A stretch of 64,000 bases of DNA from a virus (taxonomy: Duplodnaviria; Caudoviricetes). The stretch spans positions 11,448-75,447 of the IMG/VR virus record IMGVR_UViG_3300020046_003652. One strand, given 5' to 3'. Of the stretch, positions 2,684 to 56,842 are shown piece after piece. The position numbers and the translations under genes are program-made. The notes beneath the pieces were generated by a model, which ran no database searches, was not told the origin of the DNA, and was given only the letters and a program-made list of their open reading frames with translations. How positions within the stretch are numbered: position 1 is the stretch's first letter; every line of letters begins with the position of its first letter.

Positions 2684-2689
2684 TATAAA

Positions 2690-2697
2690 TAACAACT
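2690..2697 (+). promoter_or_regulatory. TAACAACT putative late-promoter motif (copy 1)
   Basis: Same octamer is intergenic upstream of + genes at 2690, 5441, 7169, 8318, 11080, 11676, 17154 and 24087, and on the - strand at 36674-36667. Confidence 0.65.
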
Positions 2698-2723
2698 TAC
2701 TATAGATAAAAAAGGTAGGAAAT

Positions 2724-3059: not shown

Positions 3060-3061
3060 TC

Positions 3062-5251
3062 ATGGCTTCAACTTTCAGAAACATAAGAGGCGATGGAGTT
3101 TTAATAGTCCCTACCGTAGCTTCTCTTCCGGTTAGTGCAGCAACAGGATTAATGGCAGTTGACGCTAGTACTACAGATATATATGTATTCGATGGTGTAG
3201 TATGGCAATTAAAGTCTGCTAGTGGAAGTGCCGGAGTTACGTCGTTTAATACCAGAACAGGGATAGTTGTCTCTGTTTCTGGAGATTATAATGCATCCCA
3301 GATAACAAACACTCCAGCTGGAGGAATATCAGCCACAGATTTACAAGCAGCAATAAACGAATTAGATACAGATAAAATAGGCAATGGAATAGCTTCTAAT
3401 AACCAATTAATATATCAAAATGGTTCCGGAGTCATAGAAGGTTTACCAGGTTTTTCGAAAGACACAACATCTGGTGGTTTACAAATGCAACTAACCGAGC
3501 AACCTAATGCTAATGTTGCTAGTTATACTGTTAGTAGCAATAATATAACTTTAGAGCCACTACAGAACTCTCCAGATGAATCTTGGAATGTTATAATTAA
3601 TCAAGTTACTATAGACCCTACTAGTACTGGTTTTACATTAGGCACAAATGGTACTGCTGCGAGAACATTATTAAACAAGATATTCCACAATGGAACTTCT
3701 GATACTGGTGCAATAGAATTAATACAAAATAATTTTAGCTTAGGTAATGGTACTGACCCTATTGATATAAAAGGTGTTTCTTATCTAATGGGCTTTGGCC
3801 AATTTAACGCTAATGTTAACATATCAGGTCCAATACAAGGTTATGGTTTTCAGACTAATATAAATGCAGCAGCTACTATGTCTTCTACGACATATACACA
3901 AGCTTTTTATGATGCAGCAAATTTTGCTACAGCAGTACCTAATTATTCATCCTTTAATGCTAGTCCTACAATATCTTCCATCGTAAATAATAATTATTAT
4001 AATGGTTTAAATATCAATCCAACTATAACTAACTTTACTGGTAATGCTGGTGCAAATGCTGTAGCTATTGGTGGTAATTGGGGTTCTTTTGGTACTGGTG
4101 GCTGGAATGGTATTAATATAAATCCAAATATTACATTAGCTAAATATGCGGCTGGTATAAATGTATCAATGGACAACGTTATTGCCTATGCAGGTGTTCA
4201 ATCTACTTTGACAGAACAAGATTTGACATTTACATGGAATTTAGTAGGAGACAACAATGCCTACACAATGGAATATACTCCAGGAGCTACAGCCGGAGCC
4301 GAAGTAGTTTCTATTTTAGGTAATGCTATTGAAGTGCAAATTGAAAATGGAGTTTCAACAGCTAACCAAATTAAGACAGCATTAGAAGCTAATATGGGCT
4401 TCAACTCTAATGTTACTGTTACTGTAAGCGGAGTTGGAACTGACCCTCAAGTTACTTTCGGCCCTACCAATTTTATAAATGGAGAAAATGCAGGAAATGT
4501 TAAAGCTGCTCAATTTAATGGAGATGTTGAAATTACTGGAGCTTTAAGTTTTAGTGGAGCACTATCAATAGGAAAACTTACAGCATTTGCGTCTCAGGCA
4601 TTAACTGACGGCGGTGGAACTCCATCTTCTATTCACAGTTTAATTACTAATCCGACAGTTGCGGCCAATGCTACCTTGACTAGTGCTGATTCTATTTCGG
4701 TAAATACAGCAGCACTTATAAATATTGGTGATAATGCAGTAGTAGGTACTTCTTTTATTGGAGTAGCGGCTTTGGGTTTACCTGCAGTATTAACCATGGG
4801 CACTGGTTCGACTGTTGACAGAATATATGGAGCACTATTTGCTCTAAGCCTAGATGCCGGAGCCACAGGTGGTACTGCAGACGAAGTTGGATTATGTAAA
4901 GCCGTAGCAATTCCAAATGGAGTTACTACTGTTAATAATTTATATGGTTATTTATTCGATCTACCTTTTGGTGATCCAGGCACAAAGACTTTTGGATTTT
5001 ACGATAGACCAGGAAAGAATAATTACTTAGCAGGTCAATTGTTAATTGGTGGTACTGCAGGTAGTGATGATTTAGTTACAAACTCAAGTGTTGCACTTGA
5101 AATTAAATCAACAACTAAAGCTTTTATAAATGCTAGAATGACAACGACAGAAAGAAACGCTTTGACTGCAGTAAACGGAATGCAAATTTACAACACGACA
5201 GACGATAAGCTTCAGGTTTATGCTGGTGGTTCGTGGGTTGACTTACATTAA
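3062..5251 (+). CDS. Fibre/spike-like structural protein
   Basis: 729 aa, rich in G/T/S/N/A, with repeated NINPTI-like turns and C-terminal ARMTTTERNAL...QIYNTTDDKLQVY..W motif typical of fibre ends. Confidence 0.65.
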   Translation: MASTFRNIRGDGVLIVPTVASLPVSAATGLMAVDASTTDIYVFDGVVWQLKSASGSAGVTSFNTRTGIVVSVSGDYNASQITNTPAGGISATDLQAAINELDTDKIGNGIASNNQLIYQNGSGVIEGLPGFSKDTTSGGLQMQLTEQPNANVASYTVSSNNITLEPLQNSPDESWNVIINQVTIDPTSTGFTLGTNGTAARTLLNKIFHNGTSDTGAIELIQNNFSLGNGTDPIDIKGVSYLMGFGQFNANVNISGPIQGYGFQTNINAAATMSSTTYTQAFYDAANFATAVPNYSSFNASPTISSIVNNNYYNGLNINPTITNFTGNAGANAVAIGGNWGSFGTGGWNGININPNITLAKYAAGINVSMDNVIAYAGVQSTLTEQDLTFTWNLVGDNNAYTMEYTPGATAGAEVVSILGNAIEVQIENGVSTANQIKTALEANMGFNSNVTVTVSGVGTDPQVTFGPTNFINGENAGNVKAAQFNGDVEITGALSFSGALSIGKLTAFASQALTDGGGTPSSIHSLITNPTVAANATLTSADSISVNTAALINIGDNAVVGTSFIGVAALGLPAVLTMGTGSTVDRIYGALFALSLDAGATGGTADEVGLCKAVAIPNGVTTVNNLYGYLFDLPFGDPGTKTFGFYDRPGKNNYLAGQLLIGGTAGSDDLVTNSSVALEIKSTTKAFINARMTTTERNALTAVNGMQIYNTTDDKLQVYAGGSWVDLH

Positions 5252-6505: not shown

Positions 6506-7165
6506 TTATAATTTCTTGTATTTCTTGCAAAAAGATTTAATCGAATCTATAGCATCCCATGTATCATCTTCATGATCTATATCTATCCAAAAATATTTAT
6601 AAATAGAGTTACCATAATAGAATTTATTATAATACATTAATACATGATAATTATATTCTCTTCCATATGTATATTCAGGTATAGCTGAGTATATTTTCAT
6701 AAAGGCTTAATCCCCATAATCATTCTGATATGTGTAGGGTTAGGATAAGTCGCTACAATATCATTAAATTTACAGTATCTACCGATACGAAACTCATTAA
6801 AAAATAATAAAGGACAAATGTTACTACCTTGAATATGGATACTACGTATAATCATAATGATTCGGTATCCTTTGCTTTTTTATACATATCATTATCATAA
6901 AACATTTCATCTATATGTTTAAAGTATCCTAATTTACCTATTCGATACCCTCCTATAAATAGTAACGAAAAACTAATAGGTGAATCGTTATATATAATAG
7001 ACTTTATTATCATAAAACTATAGCCTTTTCTGGAATAGTACAATGTTTTTCAATAGAATAAAATTTAGATCTAACATCGAACATATAATAATCGAATTTA
7101 TATATGTCATATACCAATATGTCATATACCAAGAGGGTATTTATTAAATATAATCGATTATACAT
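6506..7165 (-). other. Array of 4 mini-ORFs: 7010-7165, 6852-7013, 6697-6855, 6506-6700
   Basis: Hand-translated at 51, 53, 52 and 64 aa. All three junctions are TTA-TGA overlapping the next ATG. Confidence 0.7.
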
Positions 7166-7200
7166 AGTTAACAACTTTCTTTGTGCCATTCAAACGCACT

Positions 7201-11094: not shown

Positions 11095-11289
11095 ATGACT
11101 GCATTTCTAGCAACTTTTATACCATTTATTATATTATCATCTGCTCTAGCTTGGATGATGTTCACTTCTCCGCATCCTGAGCTTCCTCCAATGTCACCAG
11201 AGCGTCAAAAAGAACTACTAATAGCTTTAGCTGAACAAAGAAGAAAACGCAAAGAACGAAGACTTAAGCGTTTAAATAAGAAAAACTAA
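11095..11289 (+). CDS. Small membrane protein
   Basis: N-terminal hydrophobic helix and basic tail. ATG lies 7 nt after TAACAACT. Confidence 0.55.
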   Translation: MTAFLATFIPFIILSSALAWMMFTSPHPELPPMSPERQKELLIALAEQRRKRKERRLKRLNKKN

Positions 11290-11623
11290 AGATCTATTTT
11301 CCTCCATCCATGTAAGTTCATATGCTCAATGTATTTATTCTTATCTTGAGATACATATGTCGATTCTTGTGATATAATAATTAACCCTTTATCGGTTGAT
11401 ACGTCAATTGCTAAATCCATATTAGATAATCCAATATTATCAAACTGATGATCGAAATCTACTATAAATAATTTATAGGTTATTACCATTTATTGGCCTT
11501 TCTTTTTATATACACTATATCCCAATCAATGACCAATTCACCATCAATTACATGCCCATACGTACCAAATCCGTAGTTAAATATAACTAAATTATCCTTA
11601 AATGTATATAGATAGTACCTCAT
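11286..11623 (-). other. Two reverse-oriented mini-ORFs (11483-11623, 11286-11489)
   Basis: 46 and 67 aa. Upstream TTGATT-17-TATATT candidate promoter ends 8 nt before the ATG. Confidence 0.55.
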
Positions 11624-34847: not shown

Positions 34848-35708
34848 TTATTTAATTCCTTTTATGTAATTCTGACAATATCCAGCAGTACAAATCAATT
34901 GGAAATCTATTGTATTTTTTACAACTCCTATATTTTGTTTTTTATTTTCTTGATCTCCACCAGAAAGACTGATCGTTGTTTCAGGTAAAGTGAAACTAAC
35001 GATACCATCAGTAATATTTTCTTCTAATGCATCTTCAGCATCAAGACGTAATTCATTAGCTATTTTACTTTTGTACTGTTCGAGCGTAATACCTTGACGT
35101 TTAGCTACTTCTAAATCCATTTTAGTAGAAAATCGTTTTAAGAACGATGTCATAGCATGCATATGATCAATATTACCAGACGTACCTGCAGATGCTGAAT
35201 GAAACATAATGATAGTACGATCGGTCATATATCGTTTAACTCCATACTGGTGAATCATTGCATCCATAGAAGCACACGTAACATAACAGATTGTATATAC
35301 TGGAGCTTTACTTGCTTGAATAGCAGAGATTAACATACTACCAGTAACAACCGATCCACCTGGACCAGATAATACTAAATAAATAGGTTCATTAGATTGT
35401 TCAGACAAATTGTTAATAACTGCAGCAGCAACTAATGCATTTTGTCCTACTTCACCTAAAAGAGCTACTGATCTACCCGGTGGTAGAGTTAATCGTTTAA
35501 TTGATTTAGATTTAATTGTTATTTCTTTTTCTTGTAATTTAGGAACACTTGGCGAATCTACTGTAAAATTAGTTTCTTCTACTGGTAAAGTTACCGCAGA
35601 TGATGTACCTTCTTTCTGTGTTCTAGTAAAGAAAATTGCTCCACCTATAAGGAGAATTCCAGCTAGAATTAATCCTCTCACTCTGTTTTGTTTTTTGTTA
35701 TTGTTCAC
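34848..35708 (-). CDS. Membrane-anchored ClpP/crotonase-fold serine peptidase
   Basis: LSGPGGSV, CASM (catalytic Ser), IMFH (His), LDAEDALEENITD; N-terminal GLILAGILLIGGAIFF helix. Confidence 0.8.
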   Translation of the reverse strand: MNNNKKQNRVRGLILAGILLIGGAIFFTRTQKEGTSSAVTLPVEETNFTVDSPSVPKLQEKEITIKSKSIKRLTLPPGRSVALLGEVGQNALVAAAVINNLSEQSNEPIYLVLSGPGGSVVTGSMLISAIQASKAPVYTICYVTCASMDAMIHQYGVKRYMTDRTIIMFHSASAGTSGNIDHMHAMTSFLKRFSTKMDLEVAKRQGITLEQYKSKIANELRLDAEDALEENITDGIVSFTLPETTISLSGGDQENKKQNIGVVKNTIDFQLICTAGYCQNYIKGIK

Positions 35709-40940: not shown

Positions 40941-40969
40941 AGTTTAATATAATTTCATCTTAAAGTCAA
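40941..40969 (-). promoter_or_regulatory. Sigma70-type promoter
   Basis: TTGACT-17-TAAACT. Confidence 0.6.
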
Positions 40970-41530
40970 ATTAATTTTGTAAATTTATCATTTTTAGGTA
41001 TAGATCCAATTATCACTTCACCTTTTGTTATATTATCATAATCAATATAGATAATATCATAATATTCTCCAAACGGATCATCTAACGTATATAATAACAT
41101 ACGAACAGAGATATACGGACTATCGTTTATTCTTAATTTCATAATAATTTTACATAATCTCCATTATTCGGAGTAGCTCCTGAAACTACTTTCCCTACAT
41201 CTTCATTTTCGTAATACGATTGATCAAAATCAATATACCAACTATTATAATAAGTATCAAATAACGGATGATCTTTTAAGTAATATAATACCCAAGTATG
41301 TGCGTACTCCCAACTTATTCCTAATTTCATAATAAAACCGATGCAGCAAATCCTGATTTCATTCCATGTACTTTAGTAATTCCATTGCTATTCATAGACG
41401 CAAAGTTTAACCATTGATCTGATATATCACCTAAATAATATACCAGTATTGTTTTATATATAACTCTTTCGTTTTTGGTATCTTCTTCTAAGATATAGTC
41501 CACTACTTTACTTGTATATAAATATCTCAT
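40966..41530 (-). other. Array of 3 mini-ORFs (41327-41530, 41139-41330, 40966-41142)
   Basis: 67, 63 and 58 aa; both internal junctions are TTA-TGA/ATG. Confidence 0.7.
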
Positions 41531-41844
41531 TTATTTTTCCTATTCAATAAACCTGTTATAGATAAAAAACTATTGTATAATATTATCCCTATAGATAAAC
41601 CAACAATAGTTAGCATTCCTATCATTGCTAATATTAGTAAAAATATGTTTAAAGCCATAAGAGTATCTAACATTATTTTATTCCTTACCTATTAAATATG
41701 ATCCAGTTACCATAGAAGCAAGACCTAATATTATGATTAATAAAAATAAAGACCCTGTACCTCCATTAATCGCATCTATTATTAATAATATAAACATAAT
41801 ACTCATAGGTAAATGGAACAGAAACCTTCCTAGTAGCTTTTTCA

Positions 41845-43164
41845 TTATTTCAATCCCTTCATACTAATAGTCTTAACATTAGGATGATTCTTTAAAGGAT
41901 GGTCCATTGTACCGTTCTCGGATATAACAATAACCATTTGTGTTTCAGGATCAACATTAGTTCCATAATATCCATCAGTTAAAATAATAGTAAGATCTGG
42001 TTTAGCTTTATTAACTTTCTCAACAGTATCAGTCATATCCGTTCCACCAGATTCAATCTCTTCTTCTTTAATCTTATTACCTAATTTATATTTCTTAAGC
42101 TTATACAAAGAAGTGTGCCAGAAACCTAACATACATTTTCTACTACCTGCTTTAAGAAACCCGTCTACAACAGCTAAGAATTCGTTTAGTTCTTTAACTG
42201 AAATAGATCCAGATGTATCTGCTAATTCCCACAATTCAGGCAATTTAGCTAATGTTGTACCTTTAGCAACTACACCATATCGTTTATTTGGTCTTTTCCA
42301 TGTAGCAGCTCTGTCAGTAAAGCTAACAGACTTTTTAATAGCAGATTGTAGTATCTGTCTATAGTTCATCTTATTTAAGAAAGTATTCATTTCTTCGATA
42401 AGATCTTTAATAGCATCTGGTAAATCTGATTTATCGTAACTAGTTTTTTCCATAGTACGTTTAATCATCTTTTTCATTTCTTCAGCCATTTGCTTCTTCT
42501 CATCATCAGAAAGACTATCCCACATATGTTGATCTAGAGTTTCTCCTTCTCCATATGCTTCTCCTCCTTCTCCAATTCCATCTTCTTTCATCTTTTCTCC
42601 AGCTTTTTTCAAAGCATTTGGATTATCTTTAAGTAATTCCAAATATACTTCTGCTGTTGCAAACTTAGGAAAAGGTTGACCGTCATCTGTTTCAAAATAC
42701 TTAACATCTACACATCCTTCTGGAAGTGAGCGAATATACTGATTAATCGCCATATCTGCAGCTAGATTTGCTTTTTTAGCTTCATCTTTATTTGCTTCTG
42801 TTCTCTCCATTCCAAATCTAAATACGTGAGCATTAGTGAAATGTAACACTTCGTGGTGAAGAACACCAATACGATGATCTAACGACATTTTAGCAAAGAA
42901 TTGAGGATTGATTAATATTTCAAATGATTGTCTCTTTTTATCATAACATAAAGCAGCTGTAGGTAATTGATATGATGGCTTAAAATTCATTTCTTGTAAT
43001 AATCCACCAATGAATGGATTTTCGTTAGTAAAATAATATAAAGATTGTTGTAGTTCTTTTGAGAATTGTTTATATTCTTCTACTCTATCTACCTTAACTT
43101 CTTCAAGCATTTTATTAAGTTCAGGTATCTCTGTAATTTCTTTTTTAGTTTTTTCTTCTGACAT
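41845..43164 (-). CDS. vWA-domain protein with N-terminal HEXXH region (DUF2201-like)
   Basis: LHHEVLH...ADMAIN; MIDAS-like ADTSGSIS, GGTDM and ILTDGY. Confidence 0.85.
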   Translation of the reverse strand: MSEEKTKKEITEIPELNKMLEEVKVDRVEEYKQFSKELQQSLYYFTNENPFIGGLLQEMNFKPSYQLPTAALCYDKKRQSFEILINPQFFAKMSLDHRIGVLHHEVLHFTNAHVFRFGMERTEANKDEAKKANLAADMAINQYIRSLPEGCVDVKYFETDDGQPFPKFATAEVYLELLKDNPNALKKAGEKMKEDGIGEGGEAYGEGETLDQHMWDSLSDDEKKQMAEEMKKMIKRTMEKTSYDKSDLPDAIKDLIEEMNTFLNKMNYRQILQSAIKKSVSFTDRAATWKRPNKRYGVVAKGTTLAKLPELWELADTSGSISVKELNEFLAVVDGFLKAGSRKCMLGFWHTSLYKLKKYKLGNKIKEEEIESGGTDMTDTVEKVNKAKPDLTIILTDGYYGTNVDPETQMVIVISENGTMDHPLKNHPNVKTISMKGLK

Positions 43165-43188
43165 TGTAAGTACCCCTTTTATATTATT

Positions 43189-43217
43189 ATTATCTTATAC
43201 TTTATAGAAAAAGTCAA
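43189..43217 (-). promoter_or_regulatory. Sigma70-type promoter
   Basis: TTGACT-17-GATAAT. Confidence 0.45.
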
Positions 43218-43227
43218 TATATTATTT

Positions 43228-43746
43228 CTATCTCCTAATTAAAAAATATCCATCAGTTTGCATAATGCCTTCGAATTTATCATCTGGATTCCAGAAATAT
43301 TTATCTTTTACTATCCAATTAAAACTAATATATGATTTGGGCCAAATAGAATTACTAACTATCTTTACTGTCATATAACCTCCATTAGAATATAATTTTA
43401 AATTCGCTTAATTTTCTTATCCCATTGGCAAATAGGACGTTATTATCGTATGAATATACGGCATACGCAGCCCCATCTTTATAAAAACTTAAAGGAAGAT
43501 TTCTTTTTTTATAGTGATCCCAATAATGTCCAATTTTCATAGTGGTGTTGTTTCTTCTATTATATTTTCTCGTACAAACCCTGTTATACCTCTACTGTAA
43601 TAAGTAAATGAATCATCTTCATTTTGTTCTTCTATTAATTTAATAGATATAGTATTAAACATCGAGTAATTAATATTAAAAAATAATTCAGGTATAATAT
43701 AATCGCTTATTTCATCTCTACTTATATTTACTATATCTAGTTTCAT
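43228..43746 (-). other. Array of 3 mini-ORFs (43537-43746, 43385-43540, 43228-43374)
   Basis: Starts MKLDIV, MKIGHY and MTVKIV; hand-translated. Confidence 0.6.
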
Positions 43747-43758
43747 ATAATCTCCAAG

Positions 43759-43799
43759 AAAAAAGACCTCCGGCAAGAGGGGACTGCCTACCAGAGGTC
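43759..43799 (-). terminator. Hairpin with U-run after the AAA+ gene
   Basis: Minus strand: GACCTC-TGGTA-GGCA-GTCCCCTCT-TGCC-G-GAGGTC-TTTTT. Confidence 0.6.
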
Positions 43800-43810: not shown

Positions 43811-44869
43811 TTATTGAGCTTTCTTTAATACTGCTTTGAAATACTTAAGTAAATCAGGATATTGTGTAGTTAGTGCATTTAAAATATCTTTTGAATTTCT
43901 TTTGTATTCCATTTCTTTAATTAAAGACATTGCTTGTTCAGGTCCAATTGCCAAACAGATTTCATATAACATTTCATCTGTTACTGATTTCTCATTCTCT
44001 AGTAATGATCTACAAGTAATTGAAACGTGACCAGTTTTATAGTTCTTAGGATCACAGAAGTCTCTTAATCGTTTCATTGACTTCTTTAATGACTTTTCAA
44101 TTTCTTCAAACGTTACAGGTTGTTCATTATGTTTGAACTGATAAAATGCTTTACCTGTTAATTCTCCTAAGATTGCATTATAAATCTCTAGTTCTAAAGA
44201 TTCAGGAACAGCAGATTTAATTGCATTATCTAATTTAGAGAATGTTCTAGGAGATAAGTACTTACTTCCTGCGACATTAGAAATCTCTTCTGGTCTAGAA
44301 TACTGCCAAGTACCTGATTGTACGAATAATTGAATAACTGGATTATAGTTAACTTTTTCCATATACTCAACATGTACTTTTTTGCTATATTCTAGTTCAA
44401 AAAACTCCAATCGATCTTTAAGAGCAGTATCCATTGAATTTACATCATTATGCTCATTCTCTGGATTAATTGCTGTTACAATAATCCAGCCATCAGGTAA
44501 TTGGTAATCTTTGACTTTACGGTCAGTCAGTAATTGCATAAAACAGTTCATAACTGAAGTAGTTCCACGATTAATCTCATCGATAAACATTACTCCATTG
44601 CCTTCTGTAGGCCAAAAATCAGGTAGAGCGTGTTCTGTTCGTTGTCTACCATTAGTGTTTACGATTGTAGGAAATCCAATTAGATCAGGCGCTTCTAATA
44701 AAGCCGTTCTGATGTCAATTACTGGATACCCTTGACTTCTAGCCCATTGCTGAACTATCTCTGATTTGCCAAGCCCTGGAGCACTTACAAAGCAAGGTGT
44801 AAATGTTTTACCTTGTTCGCGTGCTCTCTTAGCCATATTTAAAATTTCTGGAATGTGACTTACATTCAT
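43811..44869 (-). CDS. MoxR-like AAA+ ATPase
   Basis: Walker A SAPGLGKS, Walker B FIDEINR, sensor TAINP, ALKDRL, and SPRT. Confidence 0.9.
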   Translation of the reverse strand: MNVSHIPEILNMAKRAREQGKTFTPCFVSAPGLGKSEIVQQWARSQGYPVIDIRTALLEAPDLIGFPTIVNTNGRQRTEHALPDFWPTEGNGVMFIDEINRGTTSVMNCFMQLLTDRKVKDYQLPDGWIIVTAINPENEHNDVNSMDTALKDRLEFFELEYSKKVHVEYMEKVNYNPVIQLFVQSGTWQYSRPEEISNVAGSKYLSPRTFSKLDNAIKSAVPESLELEIYNAILGELTGKAFYQFKHNEQPVTFEEIEKSLKKSMKRLRDFCDPKNYKTGHVSITCRSLLENEKSVTDEMLYEICLAIGPEQAMSLIKEMEYKRNSKDILNALTTQYPDLLKYFKAVLKKAQ

Positions 44870-44959: not shown

Positions 44960-46753
44960 TTATAATATTTTATCTAATTTTGCTTGTTCCATGTCTTTAT
45001 ATTTAAACATATTGAATAATCCAATATAACCTATTCTATAAATAATGGTATCATCTATGAATTCAAGTAGTTTAGGATATTCTTTGTCATTACAGTTTAA
45101 TATATGTAATTTCATAAATATATTGTTCCTAACATAGGAGTAAGACCATCTACTTGAAAATAAGGAAGACTCCCTTGACCTAATCGAACTGATCCATAGT
45201 ATGTAGTATAGAATAGATGATTTGTTTGTCTAACGCTATCTATAAATAATTTCATAATTGTTTAAATAATCCTTGAAATTCTAGAATATAATCTGTTGTA
45301 AATTCAAATTCGCCTGTTACTTTATTTACATTAGCTAACAGTGGACTGAAACGTATAAACATTTGATTACTTAATAGTCCTATATAAATCATAATAGACC
45401 TTCATTATAAAACATATTAGCAGCGTTCCAAGATTGACATAATTGTTGATTAAAATGAATAAATACAGGAGTTTGATACTCATCTAATAACATAAAATAG
45501 ATATATTTAGGCATAATACTAAAATCAGAACTATAATAAGCTTCTGGTTTACTATAAAGTTGCATATATCTCTTCCATAGATAAAACTAGTCCTATTGGT
45601 ACTAAAGCTGCTCGTTTATGATATTCTGGATGCTGATTAAAATGTTCTATATACCATGAACCATTAAATACTAAAAATAAATTCCCACACCATTGCGTTA
45701 CTATTAAGCTCATAACCAATTCTTCTCTCTATATGCATCTATTTCATCACTAACTACTTTAATTGTTTTTCTAAATCCAGTTGTAGTTTTGCGATCATAT
45801 ATCTCAGATGTTGCAATATAAAGTACATCTTCCCATCCACCTGTATAGTATTTATTATGATAATAACTTAAAAATGATTTATATATTAATAATTTCATAA
45901 ATAATACCACGGTACTATTATTTTTGTTGGTGTTATTCTACTAAATTCAAACCTAGTTGAGTCTATCCATCCAGAGCAGTTTGCCGTATTGCCTAAATTC
46001 AAGTACTTAATTTTACTATCATAGAAAGAAATAAATACGTATAGTTTCATAATATTTTATCCTTATCAAAATCCATAAAATCCAACACACTATGATGAAA
46101 ATTTCCACGTATGTTTATTTTATAAATATATTCAAATCCTACTCCAAAATGTAATTGGTTGAAACCAATAAATAATTTCATAATAATACCCTATTAGGGA
46201 AAGTCCAGCAACTTTGAACTAAAAGGCTTTCTCCTATGAATATTTGTCCAATGACTAATAAATGAATTGGTTGTTTATGAAAATCATAATTAACTATACA
46301 TAGTTTCATATAAGTATAGCCGTTCTGTCGTGATTCGACTCTGCTGTTGCACAAAATACTTTATGATTCTGTATTATATATACATGGAGTAATGTATTAT
46401 CACTAGTTGGGAAATGAAAAGCTAATACTTTACCTTTGTTACTAAACCATGGAGCAATGTAAGAAGTTAATTGTATTTTCATAATTTAATATTACTCCAA
46501 TCTGGATCATCTATAAATGCAGTTCCTATATGATTTGAAATATTTAAATAAAACCAAATTCTAGGATCTTTATTATAATAAACAGCAAAACCTAAGTCAT
46601 AATTTATACTCCAAGGAGACTTACTTAAATATAATACAACTTTTATAGCGTCCAAAACTTATACCCAGGATAAGATGAATGTACGTCAAAGCTAAAAGTA
46701 GAATCAGTATGGTAAAATCCACTATGTTGCTTCGAATTTATGAATATATCCAT
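44960..46753 (-). other. Array of 12 mini-ORFs (starts at 46753, 46655, 46482, 46309, 46181, 46050, 45898, 45713, 45565, 45392, 45255, 45115)
   Basis: 36-62 aa each, gap-free tiling; 9 ATGA overlaps, 8 of them preceded by TTA. Confidence 0.75.
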
Positions 46754-46802
46754 AGTATTACCTTTAGTAGTTTGCATTATTATTATCGTAGTCATTGGTA
46801 TA

Positions 46803-47495
46803 TTATAAACTAAGTAATAGTTCTTGTAAAGCTTTTTGATTCTTTTTTAATGAGTAATTTAAACACATTTTAACATCTATGATTGTTTCGAATCTTTTTA
46901 CTGTTTTAAACAATTTTTCGTAAAATTTAACTTTATTATGATCTCCACTAAATTCAGATGCCAGTCCTAACTCCCCAGATTCTTTGGGATATACATATAC
47001 TTTATCACCTTCTTTATATTCTTTTCCGGCAACTGCTCTTAGTAATTTTTGCTCATTTTCTCGTACAGATGCATACGTTTTCTCAGAAAGAGTCATCTTT
47101 TTTGCCCAAGGCGTAATATCTTCTATCTTACTAATTTCTTTTATATAACTTGTATATACAGCAGGAATTTCGTCTATTTTATTAAAAACAATAAGATCAA
47201 TACACTCTTTCAAAAACTCTTTAAGTCTAGGTTCTAGTGTTGATGATTTTAATGATGAACCTTTAAGCTTGATTTTTTTACCATCATACATTATATAATT
47301 CTTAGCTTTTAATATTATATAGCGTGGAAAATAACCATCATCCGTAAATTTAATCTCAGAATGATACAAACTGTTAAGTTCTTCTAAAAGAGATTCTCTT
47401 TCATCTTCTGAAATAAAGGAACCATCTTGTTTACATATACTAATGGCATCTGTATCTATATTACAGAGAGTAAAACTATGTTTCTTCTGTATCAT
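46803..47495 (-). CDS. polB: Family B DNA polymerase, C-terminal subunit
   Basis: NIDTDAI (motif C), KAKNY and LKGSSLK; own GAGGAG RBS before ATG at 47495. Confidence 0.85.
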   Translation of the reverse strand: MIQKKHSFTLCNIDTDAISICKQDGSFISEDERESLLEELNSLYHSEIKFTDDGYFPRYIILKAKNYIMYDGKKIKLKGSSLKSSTLEPRLKEFLKECIDLIVFNKIDEIPAVYTSYIKEISKIEDITPWAKKMTLSEKTYASVRENEQKLLRAVAGKEYKEGDKVYVYPKESGELGLASEFSGDHNKVKFYEKLFKTVKRFETIIDVKMCLNYSLKKNQKALQELLLSL

Positions 47496-49038
47496 CTGTA
47501 TTCTCCTCTGTAAAATATTCAGGTGCAATTTCTTCAAACTGTTTTCCTGTTGCCCAAGTAATTGCAGTTCTTAATATTTCTCTTCCCTTTGCTGTAATAA
47601 ACTCTGCGCATTTTGGACTATTAAAAGAAAGTCCTGTCGCCCCGTAGAATCCGTAAAAGCTGTTTAATATTCCTTTGGCTGCGGTATCCATATCTTTATA
47701 GTGTTGAAGTCCGGTTTCTGCTGCAAGTCTTTTGTACTCTAGTCTGTTCTTTTTGAATTCCTTAACCAATGTTAATAGGTAAGCATTTGGATCTTTTTCT
47801 TTATCATATACTTCATGTGCAATTATTATCGATGGGTACATAGCAGCACAATCAAATTTTGCTACGTTATCATAAATACCTGCTCTCCCCCAACTCAAAG
47901 CGCCCTCAAACTTGTTTGTTTCTGATGCTTTAGGTAAAGAGTGCCCTTGTTGTAAATATGCTCGCATCATCATTGAATTGATTTGACTACCAGACGCAGT
48001 TAACAATACTTTACTAAATGATTTGGGGACCATCTGACTAGTATAGAAGAACAGGCTACCCATTAGATCCCAAAGCTTAATTGCATCATCTGCATCGTCT
48101 TTACAATATTCCTTAATCTTTCTAAATTCTTCTGGATCTTTGTATTTGAATCTTATTTGACTTGCATCGTAAAAGGTACGTCCAGGTGTTTCTAGCCCAA
48201 GCTGCGCAATTAACGATTTTAATCCGTATGATTCCATTGCTCTTGCTACATCATATTTAATAGCAAGAAAATAAGTATCTACTATCTCTCTTCCAAATAT
48301 AGAGGCTTCATGATAATGAAGATCTCTTGTTCCATCCAATCTAAAATTTGACTCACGACTTGAAAACTTTATTTCTGACCCATCTCTTCCCCAATTCAAA
48401 GAAGTACCATTATCTTGTGCTATCTGTGCTAAATATGGTAAATCAAATGCTATTAGATTATGTCCAATAATTAATGCTGGGTTGTAGAGCTGTACATGAC
48501 TATTCATTGCTTCTATTAATTCTTTAGGAGAAGGGTATTCGTCATATGCATAGAATTTTTTAATAGTAACATCTTTGAATCTAAATGTTGTAGATAAACA
48601 AAGAACCATGGCATCTTCATTTAATGGATCTAACCCTGTTGTTTCTATGTCTAGAGATAGTAAAGATACATCTTTTGGATGCATTCCTTTAAAATAAGAA
48701 ATTCCATCTTTAATCATTGCTGATTCTTTTTCATTCCATACCGTAGTAATATCATTATTCTTTTTAAATATAGCTCTAAACTTTTGAAAATCTTGTCTAG
48801 ATGTGTATTGTTTTCCCCATTTATAATGTAAATCACCTTTAAGTCTAACCCAATCTCTTTGTACTTGTTTGTCAGATAATAACCAATATTTATTAGGTTC
48901 TATCTTAGTTTCAACAGTACCATCTTCATTTTGAATGAATAATTCAATATTAGAACCGTCTTCATGATCAACAACTTCCAACCCTACGACTTTTTCAAAT
49001 TGATTCTTACCGAAAATCAAGGGATCATAAAGACTCAT
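47476..49038 (-). CDS. polB: Family B DNA polymerase, N-terminal subunit (3'-5' exonuclease plus motifs A and B)
   Basis: LDIETTG, GHNLIAFD, YCKDD, FDCAAMYPS and KGILNSFYG; likely start MSLYD at 49038. Confidence 0.9.
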   Translation of the reverse strand: MSLYDPLIFGKNQFEKVVGLEVVDHEDGSNIELFIQNEDGTVETKIEPNKYWLLSDKQVQRDWVRLKGDLHYKWGKQYTSRQDFQKFRAIFKKNNDITTVWNEKESAMIKDGISYFKGMHPKDVSLLSLDIETTGLDPLNEDAMVLCLSTTFRFKDVTIKKFYAYDEYPSPKELIEAMNSHVQLYNPALIIGHNLIAFDLPYLAQIAQDNGTSLNWGRDGSEIKFSSRESNFRLDGTRDLHYHEASIFGREIVDTYFLAIKYDVARAMESYGLKSLIAQLGLETPGRTFYDASQIRFKYKDPEEFRKIKEYCKDDADDAIKLWDLMGSLFFYTSQMVPKSFSKVLLTASGSQINSMMMRAYLQQGHSLPKASETNKFEGALSWGRAGIYDNVAKFDCAAMYPSIIIAHEVYDKEKDPNAYLLTLVKEFKKNRLEYKRLAAETGLQHYKDMDTAAKGILNSFYGFYGATGLSFNSPKCAEFITAKGREILRTAITWATGKQFEEIAPEYFTEENTDDTEET

Positions 49039-49977
49039 AATAATTCTCCCTAAATGGAAGAGAACTTGACCATCTATCAAAATATGTATTATAGTAAGAA
49101 ATAAAATTTAGGCTATGTTCGAATCTATCATCTTTATCGTACAGTTTGAAACCTAATATTAAGTTATTACGAAAAGATTTTATTCCTATTTTCATAAAAC
49201 AACCTCAATCCAATCTATATGACAGGAATACTCGTCATCGAATATACCATCATATCTACCTATGTATCCGTATAAATCCCAAGCACACATATGAATATTC
49301 TTTCTTTTTAAGTATACAAGATATATGTAATTAGGTCCAGCACTAATTCCTAGTTTCATAATATATTATATCTATCTTTTCCTATTGGTTTTGTACTTGA
49401 CCAACAATCAATTGAAGCATTATTATGTATAAACGTTAAGGTAAAGTTTCTTCCATAATTAGGATACATAATTTCATAAACTAATACTTTAAAGTCCAAT
49501 TCTTCACTGAACATGGCATGTCTATATTTAGTTCCTATATTCATTAAACTCCACCTATGTTAGTAATAATTCCTGAATACTTAATTATTCCTCCAGCAGT
49601 TGAAGTTATATTTGAATTTGCTGATAAATAAACAAATGCATTGGGTTTATTAGAATAGGCAATATACTTCCCATTTTCAAAATTATTATAACTTATTGGG
49701 GTTACATGAAAACCATCGCTACCATAACTAAACCATTCGCTAGGTTTATTGATAGGATTATAATATATTAACATATGGTTGTCTATAAAATTTAATAAAT
49801 ATGTCATAATATCTTTTTATTTGTACTATCTCTTACGTGTTGTTTTGCTAATAACTTAGATGAGAAAAACCAAAGGAAGTTATCAATATGTAAATGATCT
49901 CCGAGTATTGCTCTTTTGTTTTTATGAAAATAAAAATCTAAATAATCATTTATTATTGTAGTTTTGACTATAACCAT
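49025..49977 (-). other. Array of 5 mini-ORFs (49804-49977, 49544-49807, 49356-49544, 49192-49359, 49025-49195)
   Basis: 57, 87, 62, 55 and 56 aa; three TTA-TGA/ATG junctions. Confidence 0.7.
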
Positions 49978-52485: not shown

Positions 52486-53279
52486 TGTTGAATATTCTAG
52501 TCCATTCCATGTGAATAGTCCTCCTAGAGTCCCTATATGTGCATACGGAAATAACGGATATACAGGACAATCGTAACTTATGAAAAATTCAGCACCTATG
52601 TATATTTTCATAAATGTTTCAATTTCTTATAATATTGAATATTAGTTCCAATTAAATATCCTCCTCGTCCATTGTCGTAGTTAAAAAACATAGAGTATTC
52701 GTACTCTTCAAATGCTTCAATATGATACGTTAATGAATGATACAGATGTTCAGCTACTTTAGATTTATATATTTTCATAAGTATTTTAATTTATCTTTGT
52801 CGATAGACCCATAACCACTAGTAAACAACCTACAATAAGCATCTGCGTATATTTGATATTTAAATTCAAAATCTTTAACATATATTAGATTATAGTTAGG
52901 TACTTTGCCTGTTACATACCAATTGCATGATAATTTCATAAATTATATAACTCCGACATACCACGATGTGTAAAACAATCGATGTGTGTATCATATGCCA
53001 TTAATTCCCCATCAGTATCAAAATAGAAAATCTCATTAAATGCTAAGGTAGTTGGTCCTAACCAATGCATTTTTCTTGAACTATAGAAAGTATTATGTTT
53101 TGTCCCATTACTTTTATTTACTAATCTTGATAATTTCATAAATATCCTTCAACCATTAAGTGATCTTCATTCCAAAAAAAAACATACCCAGTTCCTGTAA
53201 TATAAAAATAAGTAGTCTTAGTAGTTAATTGTAACACGTCGGTCATTCCATATATACATGATTTTAGTTTAAATGACAT
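52471..53279 (-). other. Array of 5 mini-ORFs (53136-53279, 52936-53139, 52775-52939, 52608-52778, 52471-52611)
   Basis: 47, 67, 54, 56 and 46 aa; all four junctions are TTA-TGA/ATG-AAA. Confidence 0.75.
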
Positions 53280-53442
53280 ATGCCTCCAAATAAAAATGGA
53301 TGAGAAATACCACATCTTGTAATATCTCTCATCCTGAGACTAGTAACTTATTAATTTATGTTAGAACTTATTGTTCACGTCAAATGTTGAATTTATATTA
53401 ATAACTTACGTATATACCATCCATAGTTATTACAAAATATAA

Positions 53443-55068: not shown

Positions 55069-55078
55069 ATTGTTTCCT

Positions 55079-55390
55079 TTAATTAAATAATTTTTTAGCT
55101 ACGTTAATTTTAAACCGCTCTTGAGCGCCCATCTTAGTTCCATCTTCACCATGTAAAATCCAATTACCAGTTTGTTTAGTTAATGGATCAATAGGGATTT
55201 CAGCAACTACCCAAGCGTTATTTAAATAGATAATAGAAAAAGCAGCACTACTAAAGTTAGCAACAGAAGCACTTGTTTGCTCTAATGAAACGTTAGAGGT
55301 TTGTTCATCGTTTGCAAATGATACTCCAAGACCAGATAAAGTATTAGCTTCTAGTTGCACTTCTTCTTTTTTAGACTTTGATTTAAACAT
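55079..55390 (-). CDS. Hypothetical early protein
   Basis: AGGAG RBS downstream of TTGACA-16-TATAAT (55441-55414). Confidence 0.6.
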   Translation of the reverse strand: MFKSKSKKEEVQLEANTLSGLGVSFANDEQTSNVSLEQTSASVANFSSAAFSIIYLNNAWVVAEIPIDPLTKQTGNWILHGEDGTKMGAQERFKINVAKKLFN

Positions 55391-55413: not shown

Positions 55414-55441
55414 ATTATACACTATATAATTGTAATGTCAA
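55414..55441 (-). promoter_or_regulatory. Sigma70-type promoter
   Basis: TTGACA-16-TATAAT. Confidence 0.65.
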
Positions 55442-56115
55442 TTCTTATTTTTATTATTTAATTCTTTTATTAATCGATTAGTACGTAAGGCTGCAGCTTG
55501 ACTAGTTCCTTTTTGGGTAATACCTCCAGCATTTATGTATTCTCCCATTTCCCAAAATTTAACATATTTACCATAGTTACTGAATTTACTACGTTTACCT
55601 TTAGGATTAATTGAACCTACTACTTGAATACGACGATCTACACAGGCTGGATATATGTTACAATTTTTATCTAGGTTCTTACCAAAATTACCAGCACTAG
55701 CTACAATATTAATACCTTGCTTTAATAATTCATTCATTGCTATAATTTCAATAACGTCTACGTGTGTTCCTTGTATAGACATATTTATAATATCTGGATT
55801 TAAGTCTTTAACATATACTAACATTTGTTTGTATTTAGCATAATCAAAAGGTGATTCTTCACTAAAGATTTTAATAAATATAACACAATAATCTACTTTT
55901 TCTAGATCTTTAGCTATTATATGTACTATGTTTTGACCATGTGGAGTATTATCTTCCATAGTCTTATCTTGTGTTATGTTTCTATCGTATATACCATTAT
56001 CACATGATTTAAACGTTCGAGCATTTACATAATATCCAGAATCCATAACAACTACACGTATTTGTTTAGCATAAGATAACATAGGTAATAATAAAAGAGT
56101 TACTAGTAATTTCAT
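55438..56115 (-). CDS. Secreted subtilisin-like (S8) serine protease
   Basis: Signal peptide MKLLVTLLLLPMLSYA; VVVMDSG (Asp), HGQNI (His), SAGN (oxyanion) and GTSQAA (Ser). Confidence 0.85.
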   Translation of the reverse strand: MKLLVTLLLLPMLSYAKQIRVVVMDSGYYVNARTFKSCDNGIYDRNITQDKTMEDNTPHGQNIVHIIAKDLEKVDYCVIFIKIFSEESPFDYAKYKQMLVYVKDLNPDIINMSIQGTHVDVIEIIAMNELLKQGINIVASAGNFGKNLDKNCNIYPACVDRRIQVVGSINPKGKRSKFSNYGKYVKFWEMGEYINAGGITQKGTSQAAALRTNRLIKELNNKNKN

Positions 56116-56842
56116 AGCCATGTATACTCACCTGCTTCTTCATCGTGGTCCAACCCACTTACTAATACTCCGGTATGTAATGTTGCCCATTCTCTGTGTT
56201 TTATATTATAATATAAATTCTGTAAATTATATTTACTTAAAAATAATCTCATATAAAAATAAATCTTTCTTCTTGTTCTCTGATTAATTTAGGTTCATTA
56301 CCGTTCATTGACCATCCAACAAAGGACCCTTCATTGGTTATAGTATTAAGTATATATTCTTTATAATAAAAACAATACCTATTTGTTTCTATGAATAATC
56401 TCATAAATAATGTATCCCTGAATCTTCTATTTCATCCCAAACGTGTTCTTCGTGATAATAAAACGTATTTAAATGCATATACCATATTTCTGTTTTACTA
56501 GACTCTATATATAATATATTATCATATAATTCGTAAGTAATTTTAAATAATTTCATAAAAAATTAAAATTCACATAATCTTTGTTTGTTAAATCGTTTTC
56601 GGTATTCATATTACCGTATTGACTAAAAGTGTACCATGAATATATATAATCAGTAAAGTATATTTGATGTTTTACTCTTGGTGACATAAATATCTTCATA
56701 TTTGTTTAATATCTTTACATAAACCTGTTAAAAAATCACTAGCTAATATTCCACTACGACTTATTCCTAAACCCCAACCTGAATGTTCATCAACGTTATA
56801 AAATATAAAAGATATATGTGTAAAGTTTCCTATAAACAACAT
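56112..56842 (-). other. Array of 5 mini-ORFs (56696-56842, 56553-56699, 56401-56556, 56249-56404, 56112-56252)
   Basis: 48, 48, 51, 51 and 46 aa; all ATGA-overlapped and chained into the subtilase start. Confidence 0.75.

What the first reader, a model, noticed from the sequence alone, without database searches (positions are those of the whole stretch)
44960..46753. Cassette-like array of ~50-aa mini-genes joined by a conserved TTA-TGA/ATG junction
Seen: 1.8 kb that the ORF track leaves almost empty tiles perfectly into 12 ORFs of 36-62 aa (e.g. MKLFIGFN, MKLYVFIS, MKLLIYKS, MKLFIDSV, MKLHILNC). Window-wide I hand-translated about 40 such ORFs. Of 29 ATGA overlaps at their junctions, 23 read TTA-TGA, typically TTATGAAA(T/C/A)TA, while several core genes use TAATG overlaps instead. 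Inference: this may be a modular library of small, translationally coupled early proteins (host-takeover or anti-defence candidates) gained and lost as units by recombination at the junction microhomology, possibly via the ERF annealase. Caveat: an ATGA overlap forces the preceding codon to end in A, and TTA is common in AT-rich DNA.
Basis: partly seen in the sequence, partly recalled or inferred. Interest (0 to 1): 0.82.

Follow-up and report, generated by a model that had tools for sequence, protein, structure and literature searches.

The report
Unit-swapping chain of phage mini-genes
An uncultured 75-kb phage gives about a sixth of its genome to chains of ~50-residue genes joined stop-to-start, and natural variants gain, lose and swap these genes as whole units at the shared TTATGA joints; what the proteins do is unknown.

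Summary
On the minus strand, 44960-46795 is fully tiled by 12 ORFs of 43-62 aa, lying between a split family-B DNA polymerase and an AAA ATPase gene. Eight of the 11 internal joints read TTATGA. Genome-wide, 36 of 55 ATGA overlaps are TTA-TGA, against 13-15% expected from NNA codon use (p about 1e-17).

The ORFs are real genes. Their codon usage picks the annotated frame, they stay intact in diverged alleles, and pN/pS is about 0.5.

TTA is not an AT-bias artefact and is not needed for coupling. It encodes a C-terminal Leu, a protein-level mark of this lineage's mini-proteins. That Leu also occurs without overlaps and with CTT codons, and it is missing from related phages.

In more than 20 natural variant contigs, 12 indels of about 140-585 nt are all whole-gene units, and most run start codon to start codon within the joint motif. 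Gene cores are two to four times more diverged than the joints.

Function, actual translation, and any role for ERF remain untested. Both AlphaFold attempts failed, and no homologues exist outside this lineage. The nearest known parallels are PeSL-mediated shuffling in T4-type phages and short conserved boundary sequences.

This scan has already reported similar joint-recombining mini-gene chains in several other phages.

The parts
46802..46830 (-). Promoter-like site TTTACA-17-TATAAT, ending 6 nt before the s1 ATG. s1 has no Shine-Dalgarno site, so its mRNA may be leaderless.
   Evidence: it matches 11 of 12 positions, one of only two such sites in 7.6 kb. The DNA is AT-rich and such sites are common (66 found, 52 expected), so this is weak evidence.
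46643..46795 (-). s1, 50 aa, first gene of the chain. It ends CTA-TAA.
   Evidence: intact in L007 and L031.
46479..46655 (-). s2, 58 aa from TTG at 46655, or 55 aa from ATA at 46646. Its joint with s1 is ATAA, a decayed ATGA.
   Evidence: The ORF, the ATAA joint and the upstream TTG are all kept in L031 at about 79% nucleotide identity. In L007 the ATA has become TTA while the TTG stays.
46306..46482 (-). s3, 58 aa, entered through a TTATGA joint. It ends ATA-TGA.
   Evidence: absent from L031/L032 as part of the s3-s6 block.
46178..46309 (-). s4, 43 aa.
   Evidence: intact in L007; absent from L031.
46047..46181 (-). s5, 44 aa.
   Evidence: absent from L031.
45895..46050 (-). s6, 51 aa. Its core is replaced by a highly diverged allele in L009, while both ends and the length are kept.
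   Evidence: pN 0.38, pS 0.57, same 51 codons.
45710..45898 (-). s7, 62 aa, the most widely shared unit.
   Evidence: Homologues at 90%, 63% and about 50% identity, all from this phage lineage.
45552..45713 (-). s8, 53 aa. L009 carries an extra 45-aa gene inserted at the s7/s8 joint.
   Evidence: the insertion is flanked by TTGGTTATGA on both sides. One variant contig (L008 = L014) has a 1-nt frameshift in s8.
45389..45565 (-). s9, 58 aa, overlapping s8 by 14 nt. It is one of the best conserved units.
45252..45392 (-). s10, 46 aa.
   Evidence: The protein is identical in 7 contigs from several samples.
45112..45255 (-). s11, 47 aa. Its core is a diverged allele with a 2-codon insertion in L007/L009/L012. 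The unit is absent from L031.
44960..45115 (-). s12, 51 aa, last gene of the chain. It ends TTA-TAA with no overlap. It has weak paralogues at 6697-7013.
45237..45257 (-). Joint repeat TTATGAAATTATTTAT..., with further copies at 45880-45900 and 46163-46183.
   Evidence: repeat family D1, three copies of 21 nt at 86-100% identity, all lying on joints.
46803..47495 (-). Upstream flank: C-terminal piece of the split family-B DNA polymerase. The N-terminal piece is 47476-49038.
   Evidence: The 46803-47495 piece has no Pfam match; it is read as the polymerase C-terminal piece from its position and from the relatives. Those relatives carry a GIY-YIG gene between the two pieces.
43811..44869 (-). 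Downstream flank: AAA_5 ATPase gene with its own Shine-Dalgarno site, followed by a terminator at 43767-43780.
   Evidence: The protein is identical in 7 variant contigs, and all 18 nucleotide differences to L007 are synonymous.

Best explanation
The stretch is a chain of 12 real micro-protein genes. It is one of about a dozen such chains in this phage. Together they hold about 80 genes of 36-70 aa, 13.2 kb or 17.5% of the 75-kb genome.

Shown: the genes are joined by 4-nt ATGA stop/start overlaps. Their Shine-Dalgarno-like patches are weak, and the mRNA around each restart is AT-rich and poorly structured. Inferred: they are translated in series by termination-reinitiation.

Shown: the TTATGA(A/G)A motif is three things superimposed. 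It holds the codon of a C-terminal Leu that marks this lineage's mini-proteins, the overlapping stop and start, and the usual N-terminus M-K/I-L/I-x-I/L.

Shown: the same 8-21 nt therefore recurs at most joints, and between natural variants whole genes are deleted, inserted and duplicated from joint to joint. This keeps the chain in register. Gene cores diverge fast (pN/pS 0.5-0.8) while the ends stay constant.

Inferred: joint-to-joint recombination on this short homology drives the turnover. It would include unequal crossing-over between neighbouring units, and selection then removes any product that breaks the chain. New units arise mainly by tandem duplication followed by rapid divergence.

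Inferred, weakly: the proteins are small, probably all-beta accessory factors made alongside the replication genes, and they act on the host. Their function is unknown.
For: Coding.
- ORFs tile 100% of the stretch, against 11% on average in shuffles.
- A codon-usage model trained on the large genes picks the annotated frame out of six for 65 of 80 mini-genes, even when stop codons are ignored.
- All 12 ORFs stay open in alleles up to 38% diverged at non-synonymous sites. Internal indels are multiples of 3 or are compensated.
- Array pN/pS is about 0.5. The neighbouring AAA gene shows only synonymous changes.

The joint is made of protein ends.
- 56 of 81 mini-proteins end in Leu, against 3 of 68 large proteins.
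- 18 of 34 mini-genes without an ATGA overlap still end in Leu, three of them with CTT.
- Leu at residue 3 uses TTA in 18 of 27 cases, no different from the 59% background.
- Related phages G001, G003 and G004 show TTA at 5/21, 3/21 and 7/39 ATGA joints, against 35/54 here (Fisher p = 1e-5). They show no C-terminal Leu bias.

Coupling context.
- Shine-Dalgarno duplex energy is -3.8 kcal/mol at mini-gene ATGA joints, -5.4 for large genes and -0.9 for random sites.
- Joints are less structured than cores (-2.2 against -3.3 kcal/mol, p = 0.007) and lower in GC.
- ATGA pairs are strictly coupled in 13 of 14 tested cases in the literature (PMC6728339).

Unit-wise turnover. The variants compared are L007-L029 at 92-100% identity, L031 at 78-93%, and one further contig known only from its gene calls.
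- Insertion of a 51-aa gene at 49359, seen in four samples.
- Loss of the 56-aa gene at 49025-49195.
- Insertion of a 45-aa gene at 45713.
- Loss of the s3-s6 block.
- Loss of s11.
- Loss of the 69-aa, 51-aa, 54-aa, 47-aa, 58-aa and 55-aa genes.
- Loss of the 48-aa gene together with its own Shine-Dalgarno site.
Most of these run start codon to start codon and are flanked by 6-13 nt direct repeats.
- The array between the polymerase and the AAA gene holds 4, 7, 12 or 13 units in different haplotypes.
- About 18 of 47 mini-genes covered by a variant are absent or replaced in at least one. Only one of 25 larger genes is truly absent.

Conserved ends, variable cores.
- Divergence is 2.6-5.5% from -15 to +20 around start codons, against 9-14% in cores.
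- Third codon positions diverge 5.2% in codons 2-6, 6.5% in the last five codons and 13.0% in cores.

Tandem duplication.
- All four significant paralogue pairs are immediate neighbours.
- The loss of the 58-aa gene lies between the homologous 3' ends of two tandem paralogues.
Against:
- Selection alone would remove any indel that breaks a coupled chain. Whole-unit breakpoints therefore do not prove that joint homology places them.
- Because all joints look alike, flanking repeats at joint-to-joint events are automatic and are not independent evidence.
- Some exchanges have breakpoints inside ORFs. Examples are the chimeric 62-aa/67-aa alleles and the fine-scale mosaic in s7.
- One unit indel, the 48-aa gene with its own Shine-Dalgarno site, does not use an ATGA joint.
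- Most mini-proteins show no detectable similarity to each other in their cores. Only 17 of 63 beat 95% of their own shuffles, so a single common origin is not shown.
- Both AlphaFold models have low confidence, pLDDT 54 and 45.
- ERF is also present in relatives that lack large arrays.
- The variants are metagenome contigs. Single-sample events could be assembly artefacts, although the main events recur in independent samples.
Confidence: 0.7

Rival explanations
1. Selection filter only. Breakpoints arise at random by illegitimate recombination. Only products that keep every gene whole and the chain coupled survive, so whole-unit indels appear without the joint sequence playing any recombination role. 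On this view the joints look alike only because restart sites need an open, A/U-rich context and the proteins share their end residues.
For: - This is the standard view for most phage mosaic joints, where no conserved boundary sequence can be found (PMC3029335).
- Internal small indels in the arrays are all in-frame or compensated, which shows strong filtering.
- One unit indel uses no ATGA joint.
- The joints are selected as open restart sites, which could by itself explain their low third-position divergence.
Against: - Ten of the 12 unit events (11 if the TAATG-type joint is counted) have endpoints that fall within the few shared bases, and several show 10-13 nt of exact or near-exact repeat.
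- Joint repeats reach 21 nt at 86-100% identity. That may be enough for annealing-type recombination (PMC3945230, abstract only).
- One deletion lies within the homologous 3' ends of two tandem paralogues rather than at the start codons.
Confidence: 0.25
2. One old paralogous family, a gene accordion. All or most mini-genes descend from a single ancestral small gene by repeated tandem duplication. The joint and the MKLxI...L ends are simply what remains of that common descent after the cores diverged beyond recognition.
For: - All four significant paralogue pairs are neighbours.
- 29 of 63 mini-proteins score above 95% of their own shuffles against a profile built from the others.
- Held-out members are separated from small ORFs of related phages with AUC 0.94.
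- Composition is shared: Tyr 8.8% against 3.8% in large proteins, and the mini-proteins are rich in Phe and Ile.
- Relative G004 has plain tandem paralogue families of similar size.
Against: - The core-only signal is weak: 17 of 63 in the leave-one-out test, and only a modest excess of high pairwise scores.
- Within the focal array only s7-s9 give marginal core signals.
- Extra units found in variants have no paralogue in this genome.
- The family profile finds nothing in five related phage genomes.
- No shared fold could be modelled.
Confidence: 0.3
3. The ORFs are not separate genes. They would be chance ORFs, pieces of a longer protein read with another genetic code, or modules joined by programmed -1 frameshifting at each joint.
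For: - The ORFs are very short, have no database family, and have weak ribosome-binding sites.
- Every ATGA joint places the next ORF in the -1 frame.
Against: - Tiling far exceeds chance, and codon usage picks the annotated frame.
- The ORFs are kept open across diverged alleles.
- Reading TGA as Trp adds only 2-18 codons.
- The base before TTA varies (A, T or G), so there is no slippery heptamer.
- The large genes are intact under table 11.
- There is no Rfam match.
Confidence: 0.03

Closest known systems
PeSL (promoter-early stem-loop) cassettes in the hyperplastic regions of T4-type phages (Arbiol et al. 2010, PMC2839356; Comeau et al. 2014, PMC4122927)
   Same: A short motif recurs between small, mostly orphan, non-essential genes. 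Indels and replacements between close relatives begin and end at that motif, so genes move as modules.
   Different: PeSLs are intergenic promoter-plus-terminator elements, and each cassette is its own transcription unit. Here there is no intergenic DNA. The motif is the 4-nt stop/start overlap plus the coding ends of both genes (8-21 nt), and the genes are chained by translation. Mini-circles could not be looked for.
Short conserved boundary sequences as sites of module exchange in phage mosaicism, versus illegitimate recombination plus selection (as summarised in Pope et al. 2011, PMC3029335)
   Same: Mosaic joints coincide with gene boundaries. This array is a case where a conserved boundary sequence is actually identifiable.
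   Different: The usual cases involve single joints between unrelated modules of temperate phages. Here the same boundary is repeated about 50 times in one genome and is polymorphic within one phage population.
Virus gene arrays that expand and contract by recombination ('genomic accordions', e.g. vaccinia K3L; Sasani et al. 2018, PMC6115191)
   Same: Tandem units, copy-number change by unequal recombination, and fast sequence change in the copies.
   Different: Accordion copies are near-identical and transient. Here the units are 43-62 aa, mostly unrecognisably diverged from each other, and stably different.
Translationally coupled ATGA gene pairs (termination-reinitiation; Huber et al. 2019, PMC6728339)
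   Same: 4-nt ATGA overlap and a variable or weak Shine-Dalgarno site inside the upstream gene.
   Different: Known cases are mostly pairs that encode subunits of one complex (my own knowledge; PMC10666635, title only). Here up to 12 (17 elsewhere in this genome) unrelated mini-genes are chained, with a Leu codon before the stop in 65% of joints.
Blocks of small early host-takeover genes in lytic phages (e.g. the SPO1 host-takeover module, T4 and T7 early genes); from my own knowledge, not tested here
   Same: Many small orphan genes sit near the replication genes and the genome end. They are dispensable and variable between relatives.
   Different: No homology to any of them. No timing or function data here. 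Those blocks are not reported to share a terminal protein signature.

Membership tests
PeSL cassettes (T4-type hyperplastic regions) | A sigma-70-like early promoter plus a stem-loop terminator between the genes | tested here: not met
   The genes overlap by 4 nt and have no intergenic DNA. No terminator-like site lies inside the array, and the single 11-of-12 promoter-like site is only at its head.
PeSL cassettes (T4-type hyperplastic regions) | Indels and replacements between close relatives start and end at the repeated motif | tested here: met
   12 unit events, of which 10 lie in the (T)TATGA(A/G)A joint.
PeSL cassettes (T4-type hyperplastic regions) | Circular excision products (mini-circles) | not testable with these tools
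   This needs reads or PCR across circle joints.
Termination-reinitiation coupled gene pairs | Stop and start codons overlap as ATGA or TGATG, with both genes on the same strand | tested here: met
   55 ATGA and 7 one-nt overlaps in the genome; 9 ATGA joints in the focal array.
Termination-reinitiation coupled gene pairs | Downstream translation depends on upstream translation | not testable with these tools
   This needs reporter assays. Only the context was measured: weak Shine-Dalgarno sites and open mRNA.
Tandem paralogue family / gene accordion | The units are demonstrably homologous to each other | tested here: inconclusive
   Four neighbour pairs are significant. In the leave-one-out profile test 29 of 63 pass at full length but only 17 of 63 on cores alone. 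Cross-validated AUC is 0.94. Within the focal array the signal lies mostly in the termini.
Tandem paralogue family / gene accordion | Copy number varies within the population | tested here: met
   The focal array holds 4, 7, 12 or 13 units. About 18 of 47 mini-genes are variable.
Integron gene cassettes | An attC recombination site after each cassette, and an integrase | tested here: not met
   There is no room for attC, since the overlaps are 4 nt. The Pfam scans of the larger genes tested in the window show no integrase.
Any Pfam or PHROG protein family | A significant profile match | tested here: not met
   No hit below E = 0.01 for 20 mini-proteins. s7 and s12 have homologues only in this phage lineage, among 5.8 billion and 1.84 billion proteins searched.

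The most novel reading that the evidence does not exclude
The phage population keeps an open, combinatorial repertoire of scaffolded micro-proteins. Each has a fixed N-terminal strand (MKLxI) and a fixed C-terminal hydrophobic-Leu end around a hypervariable core.

The stop/start joint would then serve two purposes: it is the translational restart, and it is a built-in recombination site that lets whole units be shuffled between arrays and between genomes, much as cassettes are shuffled in an integron but without an integrase.

On this reading the arrays are a fast-evolving library of small binders aimed at host defence or host physiology, and the terminal Leu is a functional tag, for example for folding, partner docking or timed proteolysis.
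Probability: 0.2. Interest if true: 0.8.

Novelty: new variant of a known kind. Interest (0 to 1): 0.55.

Why it matters
Half of this phage's genes are micro-proteins that most annotation pipelines would skip, so the case shows how much coding capacity can hide in apparently empty phage DNA.

It also bears on an old question: do phage mosaic joints form at short conserved boundary sequences, or at random followed by selection? Here one boundary sequence is repeated about 50 times in a single genome and is polymorphic in nature. The two models therefore make different, measurable predictions about the spectrum of new rearrangements.

If the proteins prove to be host-directed, the arrays would be a natural library of roughly 50-residue effectors with fixed ends and variable cores.

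Tried and rejected
- Structure. AlphaFold2 on s12 with a 63-paralogue alignment gave pLDDT 54. On the tandem pair at 40966-41330 with 7 sequences it gave pLDDT 45. Both models are unusable, so no fold search was run.
- ESM Atlas. No usable feature hit for s9.
- Pfam and PHROGs. Nothing found on 20 mini-proteins.
- Family profile A1 against five related phage genomes. No match, but the profile is weak, so this says little.
- Seed HMM iteration. It recovered only its own seeds.
- Exhaustive profile search with s7. It found one further true homologue and two spurious repeat proteins.
- Sequencing runs for expression.
- Alternative code (TGA = Trp). Rejected.
- Programmed -1 frameshifting at the joints. 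Rejected, because the base before TTA is not constant.
- Structured RNA. No Rfam match.
- DNA search of isolated phages. No near relative found; the closest polymerases are 27-29% identical, from Salinibacter and Nostoc phages. The host remains unknown.
- tRNA genes. None in the window.
Full report
WHAT IS THERE.
The window is bases 11448-75447 of a single 75,447-bp phage contig with 31% GC. The finding lies on the minus strand, inside the replication module. Upstream is a family-B DNA polymerase split into two ORFs (47476-49038 and 46803-47495). Downstream is an AAA_5 ATPase gene (43811-44869).

Between them, 44960-46795 is tiled without gaps by 12 ORFs of 43-62 aa. Eight of the 11 internal joints read TTATGA and one reads ATATGA. 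One is a 14-nt overlap. One reads CTATAA, where the expected ATG is ATA and an in-frame TTG lies 9 nt upstream. The last gene ends TTA-TAA and is followed by a 90-nt spacer that carries the ATPase gene's Shine-Dalgarno site.

IS IT MORE THAN CHANCE?
ORFs of at least 40 aa cover 100% of the stretch on the minus strand and 0% on the plus strand. In 1000 shuffles the mean coverage was 11% and the maximum 50%.

A codon-usage model trained on the large genes, with stop codons ignored, prefers the annotated frame out of six for 65 of 80 mini-genes in the genome. For the focal array it does so for 9 of 12.

Reading TGA as Trp lengthens the ORFs by only 2-18 codons. There is no Rfam match. The ORFs are therefore genes.

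THE JOINT STATISTICS.
With a simple gene model for the whole contig there are 55 ATGA overlaps, and 36 of them are TTA-TGA. TTA makes up 12.7% of NNA sense codons overall and 14.8% in the mini-genes, giving p of about 1e-19 and 2e-17.

All 36 TTA cases follow a mini-gene. None of the 8 ATGA overlaps that follow a large gene reads TTA.

The same crude gene model was applied to three related phage genomes with 33-39% GC. It gives TTA at 5/21, 3/21 and 7/39 ATGA joints, against 35/54 here (Fisher p = 1e-5). So neither AT-richness nor coupling as such produces TTA.

WHY TTA?
It is a protein feature.
- 56 of 81 mini-proteins end in Leu and 9 more in Ile, against 3 of 68 large proteins.
- Among the 34 mini-genes that are not followed by an ATGA overlap, 18 still end in Leu, three of them with CTT, a codon the overlap could never use.
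- Leu at residue 3 uses TTA in 18 of 27 cases, no different from the 59% genomic background.
- The N-termini follow M-K/I-L/I-x-I/L.
- The proteins are rich in Tyr, Phe and Ile.

The conserved junction is therefore mainly the last codon of one small protein, the overlapping stop and start, and the first codons of the next.

TRANSLATION CONTEXT (INFERRED, NOT SHOWN).
Shine-Dalgarno duplex energies at mini-gene ATGA joints average -3.8 kcal/mol. Large genes average -5.4 and random sites -0.9. The 40 nt around the joints are less structured than gene cores (-2.2 against -3.3 kcal/mol, p = 0.007) and lower in GC. ATGA pairs are known to be strictly coupled by termination-reinitiation in most tested cases (PMC6728339).

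The first gene, s1, has no Shine-Dalgarno site. It sits 6 nt after a TTTACA-17-TATAAT match, which fits a leaderless start. Such matches are common in this AT-rich DNA, so the evidence is weak.

THE DECISIVE COMPARISON.
Looking up the exact ATPase protein, and later other anchor proteins, retrieved more than 20 contigs of the same phage from at least ten samples (L007-L029, 92-100% nucleotide identity). It also retrieved a more distant haplotype (L031/L032, 78-93%) and a still more distant contig known only from its gene calls.

Alignment to the window shows these differences in gene content among the mini-genes:
- A 51-aa gene is inserted at the 49359 joint, in four samples.
- The 56-aa gene at 49025-49195 is lost.
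- A 45-aa gene is inserted at the s7/s8 joint, flanked by TTGGTTATGA on both sides.
- The block s3-s6 is lost, from the s2/s3 joint to the s6/s7 joint.
- s11 is lost.
- The 69-aa (43537-43746), 51-aa (56249-56404), 54-aa (52775-52939), 47-aa (about 53140-53283), 58-aa (40966-41142) and 55-aa (41678-41845) genes are each lost in some variant.
- The 48-aa gene at 43228-43374 is lost together with its own Shine-Dalgarno site.

Every one of these 12 events is a whole gene or a block of whole genes. Ten have their endpoints inside the (T)TATGA(A/G)A joint, with 6-13 nt of direct repeat. One uses a TAATG-type joint. One uses no overlap.

The array between the polymerase and the ATPase gene holds 4, 7, 12 or 13 units in different haplotypes.

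About 18 of the 47 mini-genes covered by at least one variant are absent or replaced somewhere. Of 25 larger genes, only one (a 91-aa lipoprotein gene) is truly absent; the others flagged are diverged alleles.

Larger differences are homing-endonuclease genes. An HNH-AP2 gene sits before ERF in some variants, and a GIY-YIG gene sits between the polymerase halves in others.

ENDS FIXED, CORES FREE.
Across 14 variants, divergence is 2.6-5.5% between -15 and +20 of mini-gene start codons and 9-14% in the cores. This understates the contrast, because the most diverged cores do not align at all.

Third codon positions diverge 5.2% in codons 2-6, 6.5% in the last five codons and 13.0% in cores. The joints are therefore conserved at the nucleotide level as well. 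That fits selection for an open restart site, exchange that uses the joints as arms, or both.

Single cores are replaced by very different alleles while length and ends are kept. s6 in L009 shows pN 0.38 and pS 0.57. s11 and s12 in L007/L012 behave the same way.

Array-wide pN/pS is about 0.5. The neighbouring ATPase gene has 18 differences to L007, all synonymous.

Only one decay event was seen, a 1-nt frameshift in s8 in one contig. The ATAA joint of s2, its upstream TTG and its open frame are all kept in L031. So s2 is still a gene, and it probably starts at TTG.

ONE FAMILY OR MANY?
All four statistically significant paralogue pairs in the genome are immediate neighbours, which points to tandem duplication as the source of new units. 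One deletion lies within the homologous 3' ends of such a pair.

In a leave-one-out profile test, 29 of 63 mini-proteins beat 95% of their own shuffles at full length, but only 17 of 63 do so on cores alone. Held-out members are separated from small ORFs of two related phages with AUC 0.94.

The set therefore has a collective signature, but common descent of all units is not shown. Within the focal array the shared signal lies mostly in the termini.

Units found only in variants mostly have no paralogue in this genome. One resembles a unit in a different array 11 kb away. The repertoire is thus open, and some movement between arrays occurs.

WHAT THE PROTEINS ARE.
This is unknown. There is no Pfam or PHROG match and no Atlas lead.

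Homologues of s7 and s12 occur only in this phage lineage among 5.8 billion and 1.84 billion proteins searched.

Both AlphaFold attempts failed, with pLDDT 54 and 45. The second model is all-strand, which agrees with the composition but is not evidence.

A relative at 45% polymerase identity (G004) has its own arrays of plainly paralogous 50-60-aa genes, without the Leu signature. Mini-gene arrays are therefore a habit of the clade, while this particular signature belongs to this lineage.

COMPARISON WITH WHAT IS KNOWN.
The closest described system is PeSL-mediated shuffling in T4-type phages (PMC2839356, PMC4122927). It shares the logic of a repeated short motif between small orphan genes at which indels begin and end. 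But PeSLs are intergenic promoter-terminator elements, and that defining feature is not met here.

The array is also a clear instance of the "short conserved boundary sequence" model of mosaicism. That model is usually set aside because such sequences cannot be found at most joints (PMC3029335).

Unequal recombination in tandem virus gene arrays (PMC6115191) and relaxed recombination by Rad52-like annealases such as Erf (PMC3945230, abstract only) give plausible machinery. However, ERF is also present in the relatives without big arrays, and nothing here tests its role.

EARLIER NOTES OF THIS SCAN.
Other first-stage notes on this genome report the same genome-wide repertoire, the same junction counts and the decaying junction. 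My counts agree with theirs.

The scan has also followed up similar joint-recombining mini-gene chains in several other phages. The phenomenon therefore recurs. It was rated here only on what was tested here.

VERDICT.
This is a new variant of a known kind, of moderate interest.

Noticed in passing
window 46803-49038 (-); L031:6730-9683; L002:1028-3871: The family-B DNA polymerase is split into two overlapping ORFs of 520 and 230 aa. Close and distant relatives carry a GIY-YIG homing-endonuclease gene exactly between the two pieces, while others (L004, L005) have one intact gene of 732-758 aa. The window looks like a split gene that has no endonuclease.
   Followed up: partly
window 55076-55079; L020:3145-3669, L023, L024: Three variants carry a 174-aa HNH_3/AP2 homing-endonuclease gene between the 103-aa gene and ERF. 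The window does not. An AP2-domain gene replaces the mini-genes at 38019-38570 in L011 and L031.
   Followed up: partly
window 46643-46655: The s1/s2 joint reads ATAA instead of ATGA. The stop is kept and the start is lost, and an in-frame TTG lies 9 nt upstream. The arrangement is conserved in a haplotype only about 79% identical, so s2 is a live gene with a non-ATG start.
   Followed up: yes
window 6506-7189 and 11286-11623 (-): Short chains of four and two mini-genes sit inside the plus-strand virion module, in the opposite orientation, like small independent inserts. One variant (L047) has the same four.
   Followed up: partly
L033 (G004) 818-3237, 4503-5190; L036 (G004) 73232-75861: A distant relative (polymerase 45% identical, 39% GC) has its own arrays of clearly paralogous 50-60-aa genes, for example five tandem copies sharing a WYRFWIT-like motif. 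They lack the C-terminal Leu signature.
   Followed up: partly
window 34848-35336 and 55438-56121 (-): The phage encodes a ClpP-like protease fragment and a secreted subtilase (Peptidase_S8). Whether either acts on the Leu-ended mini-proteins is pure speculation.
   Followed up: no
window 43767-43780 (-) and 43164-43227: A terminator-like hairpin follows the AAA gene. The next mini-gene chain then starts with its own Shine-Dalgarno site. A TTGACT...GATAAT promoter-like site precedes the DUF2201 gene, and its position marks one end of the 48-aa unit indel.
   Followed up: partly
L008/L014 883-1030 (window 45552-45713): One variant contig, otherwise 99.9% identical, has a 1-nt deletion that truncates s8 to 36 aa. 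This is either a decaying unit or an assembly error.
   Followed up: partly
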